A stretch of 64,000 bases of DNA, from positions 35,083 to 99,082 of the forward strand of contig NZ_JALEGS010000021.1 of the NCBI RefSeq assembly GCF_022763345.1. Reading direction: 5' to 3'. This stretch comes from Phaeodactylibacter sp. Lineage in GTDB: Bacteria; Bacteroidota; Bacteroidia; Chitinophagales; Saprospiraceae. Below the pieces are notes generated by a model. The model had not been told where the DNA came from, made no database searches, and saw only the letters and a list, made by a program, of their open reading frames with translations. Every line of letters starts with the position of its first letter. The first letter of the stretch is position 1. Positions 29,693-32,695 of this stretch are shown piece after piece. The position numbers and the translations under genes are program-made.

Positions 29693-32600
29693 TTGCCAGA
29701 GCAGCACAAGGGACTAGACTACGAAGCCATGCAGCAAATGGCCCTGCAACAGCAAGGGCACACCCACCTGCTGGTCATCGGTGTGGACGCCTACGCCCAC
29801 TGCCCGCCCCTGAGCAACTGCGTAAAGGACGCCAAAGACTTCACAGCGCTCATGCAGCAGCAGTATCAGGTCAGCCCGGAGCGCACCTACGAGCTGTACG
29901 ATGCGCAAGCCACCCGCACCCAAGTGCTGCGCCAGCTCAAGGACCTGCGCCATAAAGTACAGGAAGACGACAGCCTTATCGTCTACTTCTCCGGCCACGG
30001 GGAGATCGAAGACGAGGAAGGCTACTGGATACCCATAGAAGGCAAGCCCGGCGAAGACGAAGGCTGGATTGCCGCGAGCAGCATCAAGCGCCGCCTGAAT
30101 CAAGTGGAGTCCTTCCACACCCTCGTCATTGCCGATGCCTGTTTTGCCGGCTCCTTTTTCGTCACCTTCAAAAGCGCCACCCGGCAATTGCTGCACAGCC
30201 GTCGCTCCCGCTGGGGCATTTCCGCCAGCCACAGCCGCGAGCGCGCCCTCGACGGGCAGGCGGGCGACAACAGCCCCTTCGCCAAGGAACTGCTGCGCGC
30301 CCTGCGCCACAATCAGCAGCCCCTGCCGGTCGATCAGCTCTTTACGCAGTTGCGGGATGCCGTAGCCGCCGCCACGCAGGGCCGACAGACGCCCATTTTT
30401 AAGAATATTGATGTGAAGGGGGATGATCAGGGGCAGTTTGTGTTTATGCCGGTGGGCGATGAAGAGACAGCCTGGGCAGCTGCCAAAGCGACGGATACTA
30501 TTTTTGCCTACTTCAACTACAACCGGGAGTATCCCAATGGTAAATATCGGGCGGACGCCTTAGCTGCGATACGACGCTTGGAGGAGGAAGCCCACTGGCA
30601 AAGGGCACAACAAGCCGATACCCTCTCCGCCTATTTTGAATTCTTAAACCGATTTCCCGATGGGGCTTTTGCTGCGCAAGCGAAAAAGCGGCAGGAGGAG
30701 TTGCTGAGCGGCTATGGAGAGCCAGAAAGTCCGCCCAAGTCCAAAGCGAAAATAACAAAGCCACCTGCTCCGAAACCAGAGTATCTCAAACCTAATGAAG
30801 AAATGGTATGGGAGGCTGCCAAAGCTTATGATACTACACTGTCTTATGACAATTATATCAAGAATTATCCAAGCGGGAAGTACCGAAAAGAAGCTCTAAA
30901 TGAAAAAAAACGACTAGAGGAGGAAAAAGAATGGCAAAGTACACAACAAGCCGATACCGTCGCAGCTTACGAGAAATTTCTGAACCGCTTTCCAGAAGGG
31001 ACTTTTGCAAAACGGGCGAAGCAGCGTAAGAAAGAATTAATGATAGACTTTGAGAAGCCGAAAACTCCGCCCAAGCCCGGGAGAAAAACAACAAAGTCAT
31101 CTGCTTCCAAACCTAAGCCCCTCAAGCTCGACCTTCCAGCGGAGTTGGTTGAGCTAAGCGAAGGTATGCTGCACATACCCGGTGGCACTTTTTGGATGGA
31201 CTGGAAGGGTAAAAAGGGGATTGATCGCGAGAAACATTATAATGAAGTAAGTTTGTCGGACTATTATCTGGGGAAGTACCCAGTCACGCAGTTGCAGTGG
31301 GAGGCGATAATGGGTGAAAACCCAAGCAAATTTAAGGGTTGTCCAAACTGCCCGATAGAAAACGTAAGCTGGGAGAGCGTACAGGAATTTATCAAAAAGC
31401 TAAATGTTAAAACGGGTGAAAATTACCGTCTTCCTACCGAAGCAGAATGGGAGTATGCCGCCCGTGGTGGAGAAGGCGGCGCACAGGATAACTATTTGTA
31501 CAGTGGAAGCAATTCGTTGGATCAGGTAGGCTGGTACAATGAGAATAGTGGAAGAAAGACGCACCCAGTAGGACAGAAAAACCCCAATCAGCTAGGGCTT
31601 TTTGACATGAGTGGTAATGTTTGGGAATGGGTTCAGGATAGATGGCAAAAAGATTATGGGGGAGCACCTCAGGACGGGAGAGCCTGGTTAGAATGGAATC
31701 ATAAAAATCGTTTCCGACGTGTTTTTCGTGGCGGATCCTGGCTCAATGATTCAGAGAACTGTCGTGTTGCGAATCGCAACTGGAATAGCTTCTCTAGTAG
31801 ACAATACAACGTTGGGTTTCGCCTTGCTCGAGACTATCTGGACCGCTTTCCAGAAGGGACTTTTGCAAAACGGGCGAAGCAGCGTAAGAAAGAATTAATG
31901 ATAGACTTTGAGAAGCCGAAAACTCCGCCCAAGACCGAGAGAAAAACAACAAAGTCATCTGCTTCCAAACCTAAGCCCCTCAAGCTCGACCTTCCAGCCG
32001 AGTTGGTTGAGCTAAGCGAAGGTATGCTGCACATACCCGGCGGTACTTTTTGGATGGGCTGGAAGAATGAATTGCGGGATGGAAAGGGTTATAAAGAGGA
32101 AAAACCTTGTCATATAGTCAATTTACCGGATTATTACCTTGGAAGGTATCCGGTCACCCAGGCTCTGTGGGAAGCTGTGATGGGAGGAAACCCAAGCTAT
32201 TTTAAAAACTGTCCAAACTGCCCGGTGGAAAATGTAAGCTGGAACGATGTGCAGGAATTTATCGAAAAACTGAACGCCAAGATCGGGGGGCAGTACCGCT
32301 TGCCCAGCGAAGCGGAATGGGAGTACGCCGCCCGGGGTGGAGAAGGTGAGGCTCAGAACAATAATTTATACAGTGGGAGTAATACGCTGGATCAGGTAGG
32401 CTGGTATAAGGATAACAGCGGAAAAAAGACGCAACCGGTAGGATCGAAGCAGCTCAATCAGTTGGGGTTATACGATATGAGTGGTAATGTTTGGGAGTGG
32501 TGCTCAGATTTTTATGGAAAATATACTTCTCATTCTCAGACTAACCCTAAAGGACCCAGTTCGGGCCTAGAGCGGGTGCTTCGAGGCGGTAGCTGGAGCA

Positions 32601-32695
32601 GCATCTCTCGACACTGCCGTCCTACTAATCGTAACTTATGGGGTGTTAGTTGCCGTGACAACAATGTCGGTTTCCGTCTTGCCCGCAGCTCATAG
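29693..32695 (+). CDS. Caspase-like (peptidase C14) + helical repeats + two FGE-sulfatase (CLec-fold) domains
   Basis: LLVIGVDAY, YFSGHG and IADACFAG dyad; W…DT…AY..(F/Y)L.R(F/Y)P.G repeats; two LPTEAEWEYAARGG / LPSEAEWEYAARGG…DMSGNVWEW…RGGSW…GFRLAR domains; no signal peptide. Confidence 0.9.
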   Translation: MPEQHKGLDYEAMQQMALQQQGHTHLLVIGVDAYAHCPPLSNCVKDAKDFTALMQQQYQVSPERTYELYDAQATRTQVLRQLKDLRHKVQEDDSLIVYFSGHGEIEDEEGYWIPIEGKPGEDEGWIAASSIKRRLNQVESFHTLVIADACFAGSFFVTFKSATRQLLHSRRSRWGISASHSRERALDGQAGDNSPFAKELLRALRHNQQPLPVDQLFTQLRDAVAAATQGRQTPIFKNIDVKGDDQGQFVFMPVGDEETAWAAAKATDTIFAYFNYNREYPNGKYRADALAAIRRLEEEAHWQRAQQADTLSAYFEFLNRFPDGAFAAQAKKRQEELLSGYGEPESPPKSKAKITKPPAPKPEYLKPNEEMVWEAAKAYDTTLSYDNYIKNYPSGKYRKEALNEKKRLEEEKEWQSTQQADTVAAYEKFLNRFPEGTFAKRAKQRKKELMIDFEKPKTPPKPGRKTTKSSASKPKPLKLDLPAELVELSEGMLHIPGGTFWMDWKGKKGIDREKHYNEVSLSDYYLGKYPVTQLQWEAIMGENPSKFKGCPNCPIENVSWESVQEFIKKLNVKTGENYRLPTEAEWEYAARGGEGGAQDNYLYSGSNSLDQVGWYNENSGRKTHPVGQKNPNQLGLFDMSGNVWEWVQDRWQKDYGGAPQDGRAWLEWNHKNRFRRVFRGGSWLNDSENCRVANRNWNSFSSRQYNVGFRLARDYLDRFPEGTFAKRAKQRKKELMIDFEKPKTPPKTERKTTKSSASKPKPLKLDLPAELVELSEGMLHIPGGTFWMGWKNELRDGKGYKEEKPCHIVNLPDYYLGRYPVTQALWEAVMGGNPSYFKNCPNCPVENVSWNDVQEFIEKLNAKIGGQYRLPSEAEWEYAARGGEGEAQNNNLYSGSNTLDQVGWYKDNSGKKTQPVGSKQLNQLGLYDMSGNVWEWCSDFYGKYTSHSQTNPKGPSSGLERVLRGGSWSSISRHCRPTNRNLWGVSCRDNNVGFRLARSS
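30984..32057 (+). repeat. 216-bp intragenic direct repeat (30984..31199 and 31842..32057)
   Basis: Offset 858 nt (286 codons); 5 mismatches counted by eye. Confidence 0.92.

What the first reader, a model, noticed from the sequence alone, without database searches (positions are those of the whole stretch)
29693..32695. Cytoplasmic caspase-like protease coupled to two CLec-fold (FGE) sensor-like domains
Seen: intact His-Cys dyad (SGHG, DAC), two blocks of paired helical repeats each followed by a Pro/Lys linker, two FGE-sulfatase domains, no signal peptide or TM. The caspase part is visibly GC-richer than the rest, so the gene is mosaic. Known: FGE/CLec domains fused to caspase, TIR or kinase effectors are proposed antigen-sensor-like proteins in multicellular or filamentous bacteria. 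Inference: a ligand-activated protease for defence or programmed death, in an island with TA and Fic genes.
Basis: partly seen in the sequence, partly recalled or inferred. Interest (0 to 1): 0.7.

Follow-up and report, generated by a model that had tools for sequence, protein, structure and literature searches.

The report
Caspase-like protease with two lectin-fold sensors
A marine Bacteroidota genome encodes a cytoplasmic caspase-like protease tied to two non-enzymatic lectin-fold binding domains; it is one allele of a locus where relatives keep the same protease head but swap, and in two relatives hypermutate, the binding tail, so it is a well-supported new member of a known but functionally untested class.

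Summary
ORF 29693-32695 (+) encodes 1000 aa: a C14 caspase domain with His102/Cys150, two five-helix TPR-like bundles, Pro/Lys linkers and two FGE-sulfatase (C-type-lectin-fold) domains. It has no signal peptide or TM helix.

- **Not enzymes.** Both FGE domains lack the first of the two catalytic cysteines. Their closest solved relative is TvpA, the binding protein of a diversity-generating retroelement (DGR).
- **Mosaic.** The GC-rich head (29640-30452) is about 92-96% identical across eight syntenic Phaeodactylibacter loci. The tail differs: one FGE domain, TM helix plus FGE, or TM helix plus Fib_succ_major.
- **DGR link.** In two relatives the Fib_succ_major tail is followed by Avd, a template repeat and a reverse transcriptase, with adenine-only mismatches. 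The window's genome has no reverse transcriptase, Avd or template.
- **Two old cassettes.** The FGE domains are saturated at synonymous sites (dS >1) and belong to different subtypes, but each follows a 229-nt block that is 97% identical (dS 0.06).

Best reading: a ligand-gated sensor-protease of conflict or cell-death type with fixed specificity. Function is untested, and caspase-FGE fusions and caspase-bearing DGR targets are already published.

The parts
29640..29692 (+). Conserved 5' leader or promoter region that travels with the caspase head
   Evidence: In most allele comparisons DNA similarity resumes at about 29640-29648, after variable upstream DNA.
29693..32695 (+). Whole ORF: TTG start, 1000 aa, stop at 32693-32695
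   Evidence: The in-frame TAG at 29687-29689 excludes an N-terminal extension.
29759..30442 (+). Peptidase C14 caspase-like domain (aa 23-250). His102 codon 29996-29998, Cys150 codon 30140-30142.
   Evidence: Pfam 7e-21. Dyad invariant in 46/46 homologues. pLDDT above 90. Foldseek finds MALT1 and metacaspases. About 92-96% nt identity across alleles, dN/dS 0.09-0.17.
30455..30712 (+). Helical block A (aa 255-340): five-helix TPR_6/CpoB-like bundle
   Evidence: AF2 helices 257-340 at pLDDT about 90. Only weak YfiO, TPR_6 and CpoB similarity, below cut-offs. 78% nt identity to the KD52-type allele and none to the others.
30713..30787 (+). Pro/Lys-rich linker 1 (aa 341-365)
   Evidence: pLDDT below 50; sequence.
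30788..31051 (+). Helical block B (aa 366-453), low GC3
   Evidence: AF2 helices 369-453. GC3 0.34-0.36. No close DNA relative in any locus held.
31052..31138 (+). Pro/Lys-rich linker 2 (aa 454-482)
   Evidence: pLDDT below 50.
31139..31840 (+). FGE/CLec domain 1 (aa 483-716), long-loop (PvdO-like) subtype. VR-equivalent tip at about 31690-31830.
   Evidence: Pfam. Best PDB sequence match is TvpA 2y3c, 8.7e-31. Foldseek to TvpA gives TMt 0.71. Subtype. First catalytic Cys replaced by Asn.
31841..31996 (+). In-frame junction: last helix of a helical block plus Pro/Lys linker 3 (aa 717-768)
   Evidence...GFRLARD|YLDRFPEGTF....
31997..32692 (+). FGE/CLec domain 2 (aa 769-1000), short-loop subtype. 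VR-equivalent tip at about 32550-32692.
   Evidence: Pfam best stretch 776-998. Subtype. First catalytic Cys replaced by Ser. Modelled with lower confidence.
30979..31207 (+). Direct repeat copy 1: half helical repeat, linker and the first strand of the FGE domain
   Evidence: 97% identical to 31837-32065; start-to-start spacing 858 nt, which is 286 codons. dS 0.06.
31837..32065 (+). Direct repeat copy 2
29226..29689 (+). Upstream variable slot: 108-aa antitoxin-like ORF (29226-29552) plus a truncated PIN stub (29552-29689). Context, probably not a functional part.
   Evidence: 92% identical to L043 up to 29628. L043 7363-7911, which is most of its 158-aa PIN gene, is missing here.
32832..33476 (-). 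Uma2-family gene, conserved downstream neighbour on the opposite strand
   Evidence: Pfam 4e-32; PADLOC PDC-S03 1.5e-13. Present, or present as a remnant, downstream in all the loci held that extend past the gene.
33769..34752 (+). Fic-family gene, SoFic-like by the PADLOC model, GC 0.35
   Evidence: Pfam 6e-19; PADLOC SoFic 2.4e-44; below the NCBIfam equivalog cut-off.

Best explanation
The gene encodes a cytoplasmic, single-chain sensor-protease.

**Parts.** The executioner part is an N-terminal orthocaspase/metacaspase-like C14 domain with His102, Cys150 and conserved Asp46 and Asp148. Two TPR-like five-helix bundles and disordered Pro/Lys linkers tether it to two non-catalytic, TvpA-like C-type-lectin-fold (FGE-fold) domains of different subtype, which act as ligand binders.

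**Proposed mechanism (inferred).** Binding of a cytoplasmic ligand, most plausibly a protein or glycan from a phage or other invader, to one or both lectin tips brings protease heads together. This resembles proximity or dimerisation activation in paracaspases and metacaspases. The active protease then cleaves cellular targets, causing growth arrest or death, or starting a signal.

**Locus context (shown).** This is the window genome's allele of a conserved hypervariable locus in Phaeodactylibacter. The head and its 5' leader are inherited vertically under purifying selection. The sensor tail is exchanged by recombination. In two relatives the tail is a membrane-anchored Fib_succ_major (CLec2) domain rewritten by an adjacent DGR. 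The window genome has no DGR, so specificity here is fixed in the germline. It was broadened by fusing a second, old sensor cassette in frame behind a conserved linker.

**Shown versus inferred.** Shown: domain content, catalytic residues, loss of FGE catalytic residues, lack of a TM helix, mosaic breakpoints, synteny, an active-looking DGR in relatives, and absence of RT, Avd and TR here. Inferred: ligand binding, the activation mechanism, the substrates and a defence role.
For: - Domains and catalytic dyad.
- Fold: (TvpA TMt 0.71, PvdO 0.75, MALT1 caspase domain 0.74, metacaspases 0.61-0.63).
- FGE catalytic cysteine pair absent, while the genome's own separate FGE-sulfatase gene (contig C85) keeps both cysteines.
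- No TM helix or signal peptide.
- Head about 92-96% identical, with unrelated tails, at the same syntenic locus in L001, L003, L004, L006, L007, L043, L053 and L055.
- DGR next to the Fib_succ_major allele: VR and TR are 86% identical and every mismatch is an A in the TR. Avd and RT are called in L004 and L043.
- Purifying selection on the head (dN/dS 0.09-0.17) and on the FGE cores (0.11-0.17).
- Variation is concentrated in the VR-equivalent tip.
- Between KD52 and L006 the tip alone is replaced behind a 720-nt block that is 100% identical.
- A paralogue with the same head type carries the conflict-system adaptor EAD11.
- The neighbours match PADLOC models: SoFic, a listed defence system, and PDC-S03, a candidate.
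- Literature: caspase-FGE architecture (PMC3501461); orthocaspase N-termini on DGR variable proteins (PMC7517822); CLec domains proposed as antigen sensors (PMC7159879, PMC10907252); proteases fused to FGE sensors, and caspase-like proteases that license death effectors (PMC12642450).
Against: - No experiment bears on this protein or any close homologue.
- No partner effector of a known kind (EACC1, Pepco, or a PADLOC-listed defence effector) was recognised next to the gene in the window. The upstream and downstream ORFs of relatives had no Pfam match. The substrate is therefore unknown.
- No FGE-type tail at this locus is DGR-linked in any of six distinct genomes. The DGR link is by shared head and locus, not by this tail.
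- FGE2 is modelled with low confidence.
- The defence association of the neighbours is weak. Uma2 and Fic families are broad.
Confidence: 0.55

Rival explanations
1. It is a regulatory or housekeeping sensor-protease rather than an immune one. The lectin-fold domains would bind an endogenous cytoplasmic ligand, such as a glycan precursor, a stress-damaged protein or a developmental signal. The caspase domain would process specific host proteins for signalling, differentiation or stress adaptation. This is the role proposed for cyanobacterial orthocaspase variable proteins ('regulatory pathway tuning').
For: - PMC7517822 argues for this reading of orthocaspase-CLec proteins.
- The gene sits between housekeeping genes at a conserved chromosomal position.
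- No recognisable death effector is adjacent.
- The genome has ten C14-domain genes with very different partners, which suggests many roles.
Against: - An endogenous ligand would not be expected to drive wholesale tail replacement, tip swapping and DGR hypermutation at one locus among close relatives.
- A paralogue with the same head type carries the EAD11 adaptor typical of conflict systems.
Confidence: 0.22
2. It is a frozen relic. After loss of diversification, the gene would be a neutral chimera produced by illegitimate recombination, no longer gated by any ligand and on its way to decay.
For: - The upstream PIN gene is truncated.
- DGR cassettes have been deleted in relatives, for example L053 and L056.
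- The window genome has no RT at all.
- The FGE1-to-linker join looks like a one-off illegitimate fusion.
Against: - A 1000-codon frame is intact.
- The catalytic dyad and all family-invariant residues are kept.
- dN/dS is 0.1-0.17 in the head and the FGE cores.
- The junction is exactly in frame and keeps a full linker.
- Both FGE domains score above the Pfam cut-off, and FGE1 is modelled with high confidence.
Confidence: 0.1
3. The second FGE module is an assembly artefact. Two strain alleles that share the 229-nt linker would have been chained into one ORF.
For: - A 229-nt repeat at 97% identity is the kind of sequence that confuses short-read assemblers.
- The assembly has 114 contigs.
- No other allele at this locus has two FGE domains.
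Against: - The join needs a unique junction sequence (...GFRLARD-YLD-RFPEG..., nt about 31830-31850). That sequence is in neither parent arrangement, is exactly in frame and replaces the stop codon. Graph collapse across a shared repeat cannot create it.
- The two repeat copies differ by 3%, so they were resolved as distinct.
- Tandem multi-FGE proteins, including a caspase-bearing one, are common elsewhere.
Confidence: 0.05
4. The FGE domains are enzymes (formylglycine generation, or EgtB/PvdO-like chemistry) and the caspase domain processes their substrate.
For: - There are strong Pfam FGE-sulfatase scores and sub-threshold NCBIfam hits to PvdO, EgtB and SenA.
- The 2012 survey speculated on a combined proteolytic and formylglycine modification (PMC3501461).
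Against: - The first of the two copper-binding cysteines is Asn or Ser here, and several close alleles lack both.
- No DinB-type iron domain of the kind in EgtB is present.
- All NCBIfam enzyme hits are far below their cut-offs.
- The nearest solved relative is the non-enzymatic TvpA.
- The genome has its own separate FGE-sulfatase gene that keeps both cysteines.
Confidence: 0.03

Closest known systems
Metacaspase|FGE-sulfatase architecture of prokaryotic caspase homologues (Asplund-Samuelsson et al. 2012, PMC3501461; includes Haliscomenobacter hydrossis, Saprospiraceae)
   Same: An N-terminal C14 domain with the His-Cys dyad fused to a C-terminal FGE-sulfatase domain. Variants with TM helices between the two parts are also listed there, as they are among the alleles at this locus.
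   Different: That survey is a domain catalogue with no function, and it guessed at enzymatic formylglycine chemistry. The window protein has two FGE domains of different subtype, TPR-like helical bundles and no catalytic cysteine pair.
Orthocaspase-CLec variable proteins of cyanobacterial DGRs and their paralogues (Vallota-Eastman et al. 2020, PMC7517822)
   Same: A caspase-like N-terminus with a C-terminal lectin-fold domain that carries a DGR-type variable tip. Paralogues without a DGR exist alongside true targets.
   Different: The window genome has no RT, Avd or TR. The DGR-linked alleles at this locus use a Fib_succ_major (CLec2) tail behind a TM helix, not the FGE tail. The phylum is Bacteroidota.
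TvpA of Treponema denticola (PDB 2y3c), the CLec1/FGE-type DGR variable protein
   Same: It is the best sequence match (8.7e-31) and the best fold match (TMt 0.71, rmsd 2.0) for FGE1. The spacing of the C-terminal RGGSW...CR...R...GFRLA scaffold is the same, without gaps.
   Different: TvpA is a surface lipoprotein with no protease, and its tip is written by a DGR. Here the domain is cytoplasmic, fused to a protease and not DGR-linked.
Caspase-like and other proteases fused to sensors in bacterial immunity (protease-effector modules with Pepco, EACC1, MBL or hydrolase, PMC12642450; CLec/FGS sensors of ternary and STAND conflict systems, PMC7159879 and PMC10907252)
   Same: The logic is the same: a sensor domain, FGE-type in some cases, coupled to a protease that executes the response. 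The caspase domain hits NCBIfam 'caspase, EACC1-associated type' at 76 bits. A paralogue carries EAD11.
   Different: There is no NTPase domain, no adaptor domain and no recognisable adjacent effector. The NCBIfam hit is below its 140-bit cut-off. This is a stand-alone single-gene arrangement.
MALT1 paracaspase and fungal or yeast metacaspases (PDB 3v4o, 7qp0, 4f6o)
   Same: They share the caspase-hemoglobinase fold, with TMt 0.61-0.74, and the SGHG and DxC motifs. Conserved Asp46 and Asp148 stand at the positions that, as far as I recall, line the acidic S1 pocket of Arg/Lys-specific metacaspases.
   Different: Sequence identity is only 15-18%. There are no death, Ig or Ca-binding regulatory parts. 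Specificity and dimer activation are inferred, not tested.

Membership tests
Peptidase C14 (caspase / metacaspase / orthocaspase) | Match to the family profile above the curated threshold | tested here: met
   PF00656: 75.4 bits against a cut-off of 21.4, E 7e-21.
Peptidase C14 (caspase / metacaspase / orthocaspase) | Catalytic His-Cys dyad in the p20-like core | tested here: met
   His102 (SGHG) and Cys150 (DAC) are invariant in 46/46 homologues. SGHG aligns with the YSGHGG motif of Yca1.
Peptidase C14 (caspase / metacaspase / orthocaspase) | Caspase-hemoglobinase fold | tested here: met
   AF2 pLDDT above 90 over aa 20-250. Foldseek: MALT1 3v4o TMt 0.74, metacaspases 0.61-0.63.
Peptidase C14 (caspase / metacaspase / orthocaspase) | Proteolytic activity and P1 specificity | not testable with these tools
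   Asp46 and Asp148 are conserved in 45-46/46 homologues, which suggests basic P1 specificity. The mapping to metacaspase S1 residues rests on my own knowledge.
Formylglycine-generating enzyme (catalytic FGE/SUMF1) | FGE-sulfatase fold | tested here: met
   PF03781 1.3e-90, two stretches. Foldseek to FGE structures gives TMt 0.60-0.67.
Formylglycine-generating enzyme (catalytic FGE/SUMF1) | Pair of copper-binding catalytic cysteines (human C336/C341; C-x4-C) | tested here: not met
   In the alignment to the T. curvata FGE, the first Cys is Asn in FGE1. It is Ser in FGE2. Only the second Cys is kept, and close alleles such as P0002 lack both. The genome's own FGE-sulfatase gene on contig C85 has LCNDSYC.
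DGR variable protein (CLec1, TvpA type) | C-terminal lectin-fold domain with the VR scaffold | tested here: met
   TvpA is the best PDB match by sequence and by fold. The RGGSW...CR...R...GFRLA spacing is conserved, with variable positions between the anchors.
DGR variable protein (CLec1, TvpA type) | A cognate template repeat with adenine-specific mismatches | tested here: not met
   There is no third copy of either tip in the window or in the 6.9-Mb genome. FGE1 and FGE2 differ at synonymous sites of conserved codons, so they are not two VRs of one TR.
DGR variable protein (CLec1, TvpA type) | DGR reverse transcriptase and Avd in the genome | tested here: not met
   PF00078 gives 0 matches in the genome, which is 99.9% complete. 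tblastn with the L004 RT and Avd finds nothing at E up to 1.
DGR variable protein (CLec1, TvpA type) | Orthologues at the same locus are DGR targets | tested here: inconclusive
   Met for the Fib_succ_major (CLec2) alleles L004 and L043, with Avd, RT and an A-only TR/VR pair in L004. Not met for any of six FGE-type alleles.
Protease-effector defence modules (EACC1, Pepco, gasdermin, MBL, hydrolase) | A cleavable effector gene next to the protease | tested here: not met
   The ORFs flanking the gene in the window have no Pfam, NCBIfam or PADLOC match to such effectors, and those in relatives have no Pfam match. The upstream slot holds an antitoxin and PIN stub here, and an ORF that I read as a transposase in relatives.
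STAND / ternary (MoxR-vWA-VMAP) conflict systems | NTPase (STAND or MoxR), vWA or EAD adaptor parts | tested here: not met
   None is in the protein or its neighbours. Only a paralogue on contig C68 carries EAD11.

The most novel reading that the evidence does not exclude
The tkt-epimerase slot of Phaeodactylibacter would be a polymorphic immune-receptor locus comparable to allelic NLR series. One conserved caspase 'executioner' head, with its own leader, is kept. Its sensor is diversified by three routes that are all visible among relatives:
- DGR hypermutation of a periplasmic CLec2 tip.
- Recombinational swapping of whole tails, or only of the roughly 80-aa ligand-binding tip.
- In-frame stacking of two different CLec1 cassettes, as in the window allele.

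The window allele would then be a dual-specificity cytoplasmic receptor-protease. Its two 229-nt repeats are 858 nt (286 codons) apart. Homologous recombination between them could shed FGE1 in frame, or regain it, giving a reversible change of sensor repertoire.
Probability: 0.3. Interest if true: 0.6.

Novelty: new member of a known kind. Interest (0 to 1): 0.4.

Why it matters
Caspase-lectin fusions are widespread in complex bacteria and are repeatedly proposed as antigen sensors. As far as I could find in the papers read here, none of this kind has been tested.

This locus offers a natural allelic series on one nearly identical protease head:
- cytoplasmic versus membrane-anchored tails;
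- one versus two sensors;
- FGE-type versus Fib_succ_major-type domains;
- DGR-driven versus fixed specificity.

That makes it a ready-made set of constructs for asking whether lectin-fold domains gate a bacterial caspase, and what they recognise. It also shows that sensor diversification by retroelement and by recombination can alternate at a single chromosomal site.

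Tried and rejected
- **Active DGR target.** I looked for a TR in the window and in the genome, for RVT_1, and for the relatives' RT and Avd by tblastn. All were negative, so this is rejected for this genome.
- **Remote targeting in relatives.** P. xiamenensis KD52 has at least three other DGR loci with FGE-type VRs. None of their TRs matches the tip of the KD52 allele at this locus.
- **Plain tandem duplication of the FGE module.** Rejected. dS is 0.06 in the linker block but saturated in the domains, and the two domains fall into different loop subtypes that each have their own relatives.
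- **Partner effector.** I scanned flanking ORFs of the window and relatives against Pfam, and the window's also against NCBIfam and PADLOC, and found nothing. The 220-aa upstream ORF of relatives contains an HFHWLF motif that I read as tyrosine-transposase-like. It has no profile hit, and it sits among REP-like repeats.
- **Donor of the window's tail.** No DNA relative above 78% identity was found in any locus held, and no close protein relative in the tail-directed search.
- **Downstream hairpin or IMH-like element after the stop.** Nothing notable was found.
- **tRNA or integration site.** None in the window.
- **Identity of the helical blocks.** Only sub-threshold YfiO, TPR_6 and CpoB similarity was found.

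Full report
**1. What is there**

The window has a single open frame at 29693-32695 (+). It starts at TTG three bases after an in-frame TAG, so the product cannot be longer at its N-terminus.

Pfam finds a Peptidase_C14 caspase domain (aa 26-238, E 7e-21) and two FGE-sulfatase stretches (E 1.3e-90). The SGHG (aa 100-103) and DAC (aa 148-150) motifs are present. His102 and Cys150 are invariant in all 46 caspase-bearing homologues aligned. So are Asp148 and Arg173, and Asp46 is kept in 45 of 46. SGHG aligns with the YSGHGG motif of yeast metacaspase Yca1.

An AlphaFold2 model built on 53 homologues has mean pLDDT 78.7. It gives:
- a confident caspase core (aa 20-250);
- two confident five-helix bundles (aa 257-340 and 369-453);
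- a confident first FGE domain (aa 483-716);
- disordered Pro/Lys linkers;
- a less confident second FGE domain.

Foldseek places the FGE part next to TvpA (2y3c, TMt 0.71, rmsd 2.0), PvdO and the true FGEs. It places the caspase part next to the MALT1 caspase domain (TMt 0.74) and metacaspases.

The helical bundles have only sub-threshold similarity to YfiO/BamD, TPR_6 and CpoB repeats. No 19-residue window is hydrophobic enough for a TM helix: the maximum is 1.54, against 3.02 in a TM-bearing allele.

**2. The FGE domains are binders, not enzymes**

In the alignment to the copper-dependent FGE of T. curvata, the first of the two catalytic cysteines is Asn in FGE1. It is Ser in FGE2, and several close alleles lack both cysteines. 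The same genome has a separate FGE-sulfatase gene with the highest profile score, which keeps the C-x4-C pair.

All NCBIfam enzyme models (PvdO, EgtB, SenA, OvoA) score far below their cut-offs. The best solved sequence relative is TvpA, the non-enzymatic variable protein of the Treponema DGR (8.7e-31). The C-terminal scaffold RGGSW...CR...R...GFRLA aligns to TvpA without gaps. Among alleles the anchors of this scaffold are fixed while the positions between them vary freely.

**3. The gene is mosaic, and the breakpoint is mapped**

The head has GC 0.61 and GC3 0.72-0.86. The rest has GC 0.44-0.52. The genome mean is 0.51 with sd 0.047.

The neighbourhood is syntenic in related Phaeodactylibacter genomes and metagenome contigs. 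The order is TerC, an S24 peptidase, transketolase, a variable slot, the caspase gene, Uma2, Fic in some genomes, an epimerase and a fasciclin protein. Flanks are about 85-96% identical at the DNA level.

In most comparisons similarity resumes at about 29640, 53 nt before the start codon, and runs at about 92-96% to 30452, the end of the caspase domain. After that point it either drops to 78% (KD52-type alleles, up to 30778) or vanishes.

Head dS (0.15-0.28) is like that of the flanking genes (0.17-0.39), and head dN/dS is 0.09-0.17. The GC-rich head is therefore the resident, vertically inherited part, and the lower-GC tail is what has been exchanged.

**4. An allelic series at one locus**

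On essentially the same head, relatives carry four kinds of tail:
- one helical block plus one FGE domain, no TM helix (KD52 and two MAGs, L006, L055);
- three helical repeats, a TM helix and an FGE domain (L003, L007);
- three helical repeats, a TM helix and a Fib_succ_major domain (L004, L043, L053, L056);
- in the window, two helical blocks and two FGE domains.

In L004 and L043 the Fib_succ_major gene is followed by bAvd and a 402-aa RVT_1 reverse transcriptase. In L004 a 193-nt repeat pair (10158-10350 and 11424-11616) is 86% identical, and every mismatch is an adenine in the downstream copy. This is the textbook DGR signature. Wu et al. class Fib_succ_major/DUF1566 targets as CLec2 and FGE targets as CLec1 (PMC5758913).

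L053 and L056 have the same kind of tail but no Avd or RT. The tip of L053 still matches the L004 template at 82%. DGR loss therefore recurs at this locus. None of the six distinct FGE-type alleles has a DGR beside it.

The window's genome is 6.9 Mb and 99.9% complete. It has no RVT_1 match, no tblastn match to the relatives' RT or Avd, and no third copy of either FGE tip. KD52, by contrast, has at least three other DGR loci with FGE-type targets, and none is directed at this gene.

**5. How the two-sensor tail arose**

The block 30979-31207 covers the last helix of block B, the linker and the first strand of the FGE domain. It recurs at 31837-32065 at 97% identity, 858 nt (286 codons) downstream.

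Synonymous divergence is 0.06 in this block. It is saturated (above 1) in the FGE domains that follow, where dN/dS is 0.11-0.17. The two domains also belong to different subtypes:
- FGE1 has the long W..Y.G-AP.DG.AWLE loop shared with P0002, P0004 and P0005.
- FGE2 has the short YG.Y.S..Q.NPKGP loop shared with P0003, P0010 and P0017.

The join reads ...GFRLARD|YLDRFPEGTF.... A complete FGE1 has lost its stop codon and runs in frame into the last helix of a helical block. The simplest account is that two old cassettes, each preceded by the same conserved linker, were fused. A recent tandem duplication does not fit.

Recombination of this kind is active in the clade. Between KD52 and L006 the gene is 100% identical over 720 nt, then becomes unrelated for the last 260 nt or so, starting just after GNVWEW. 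Only the ligand-binding tip has been replaced, and it switches subtype.

Multi-FGE proteins are common in databases, including one with a caspase domain (P0110). Stacking as such is therefore not unique.

**6. Context**

- Upstream is a 108-aa antitoxin-like ORF and a PIN stub. Relative to L043, about 550 bp holding most of the PIN gene are missing.
- Other relatives have REP-like repeats in this slot, plus a 220-aa ORF that I read as a tyrosine-transposase relative from an HFHWLF motif. It has no profile hit.
- Downstream are a Uma2-family gene (PADLOC candidate PDC-S03) and a Fic gene that matches the PADLOC SoFic model.
- No EACC1, Pepco or other known effector was recognised next to the gene.
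- The genome has ten C14-domain genes. Three share this head type. One of those carries EAD11, an adaptor of the conflict systems described by Kaur et al., and one has the same helical repeats followed by a TM helix.
- The head type occurs in 58 of 151 genomes sampled from the family, with up to eight copies.

**7. Mechanism**

What is shown:
- an intact caspase-like catalytic core under purifying selection;
- non-catalytic TvpA-like lectin-fold domains whose tips are the most variable part;
- flexible tethers between the parts;
- cytoplasmic location;
- evolutionary behaviour typical of a recognition module, namely tail swapping, tip swapping and DGR hypermutation in sister alleles.

What I infer: ligand binding by the lectin tips brings heads together and activates them, as in paracaspases and metacaspases, and the protease then cleaves cellular targets. 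Conserved Asp46 and Asp148 suggest Arg/Lys specificity. Invariant Arg173 lies in the low-confidence loop after Cys150 and could be an autoprocessing site. Both points are speculation based on my own knowledge of metacaspases.

A defence or cell-death role fits the literature (PMC7159879, PMC10907252, PMC12642450) and the pattern of diversification, but it is untested. A regulatory role, as proposed for cyanobacterial orthocaspase variable proteins (PMC7517822), is the main rival.

**8. Comparison and novelty**

- The metacaspase-FGE-sulfatase architecture was catalogued in 2012 in 33 proteins, including one from the Saprospiraceae member Haliscomenobacter (PMC3501461).
- Orthocaspase N-termini on DGR variable proteins and their paralogues were described in 2020 (PMC7517822).
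- CLec/FGS domains as sensors of conflict systems were proposed in 2020 and 2024.
- Earlier notes of this scan report several caspase-lectin DGR targets and fossils. I used these as leads only.

The window gene is therefore a new member of a known, functionally untested kind. What this analysis adds is the allelic series at one syntenic locus and the cassette-fusion origin of the two-sensor allele.

**9. Limits**

FGE2 is modelled with low confidence. No relative of the window's own tail above 78% DNA identity was found.

Noticed in passing
window 29552-29689: This is a PIN toxin stub. The window is 92% identical to L043 up to 29628, and then lacks L043 7363-7911, which is most of its 158-aa PIN gene. 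The 108-aa antitoxin-like ORF (29226-29552) is left without a partner.
   Followed up: yes
window 28697-28881; L004 7479-7941: REP-like repeats (TGCTGGTGTAGAGCTTAAGC ... GGATCCCGGTAAAGTACCGGGAGGGAAGCTCC) lie between transketolase and the caspase gene. In L001, L004 and L006 they accompany a 220-239-aa ORF with an HFHWLF motif that I read as a REP-associated tyrosine-transposase relative. It has no Pfam hit.
   Followed up: partly
L001 8001-9812 versus L006 10001-11800: Two FGE-type alleles are 100% identical over nt 811-1530 of the gene and unrelated over the last 260 nt or so, starting just after GNVWEW. Only the ligand-binding tip was replaced, and it switches loop subtype.
   Followed up: yes
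window 30979-31207 and 31837-32065: The two 97%-identical repeats are 858 nt (286 codons) apart. Homologous recombination between them would remove FGE1 exactly in frame and leave a 714-aa one-sensor protein.
   Followed up: no
own genome versus L050-L052 (P. xiamenensis KD52): KD52 has at least three other DGR-like loci, each with a TR-like repeat and two or three FGE-type VR-like copies. The window's genome, a relative whose DNA around this locus is about 85-94% identical to KD52, has no reverse transcriptase at all.
   Followed up: partly
L053 2470-2659: The tip of this Fib_succ_major allele still matches the L004 template repeat at 82%. However, Avd, TR and RT are gone. Only a roughly 100-nt remnant, REP repeats and a Uma2 fragment remain. 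This is a frozen DGR target.
   Followed up: partly
own genome contigs C68:117682-119070, C111:53817-55850, C36:22691-23854: These are three paralogues. C68 has this head type plus EAD11. C111 has this head type, similar helical repeats, a TM helix and an unknown C-terminal domain. C36 is a signal-peptide protein with a short caspase-like N-terminal remnant fused to an FGE domain.
   Followed up: partly
window 32832-33476 (-): A Uma2-family gene on the opposite strand follows the caspase gene in all the loci held that extend past it, as a remnant in L053. Its own sequence also falls into divergent types: about 75% versus 94-97% identity to the window copy.
   Followed up: no
L043 10460-10948; L004 10466-10954: Small ORFs lie between the DGR target and Avd. 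The one in L043 has a weak MutS_I-like hit (E 1e-3). They may be DGR accessory genes.
   Followed up: no
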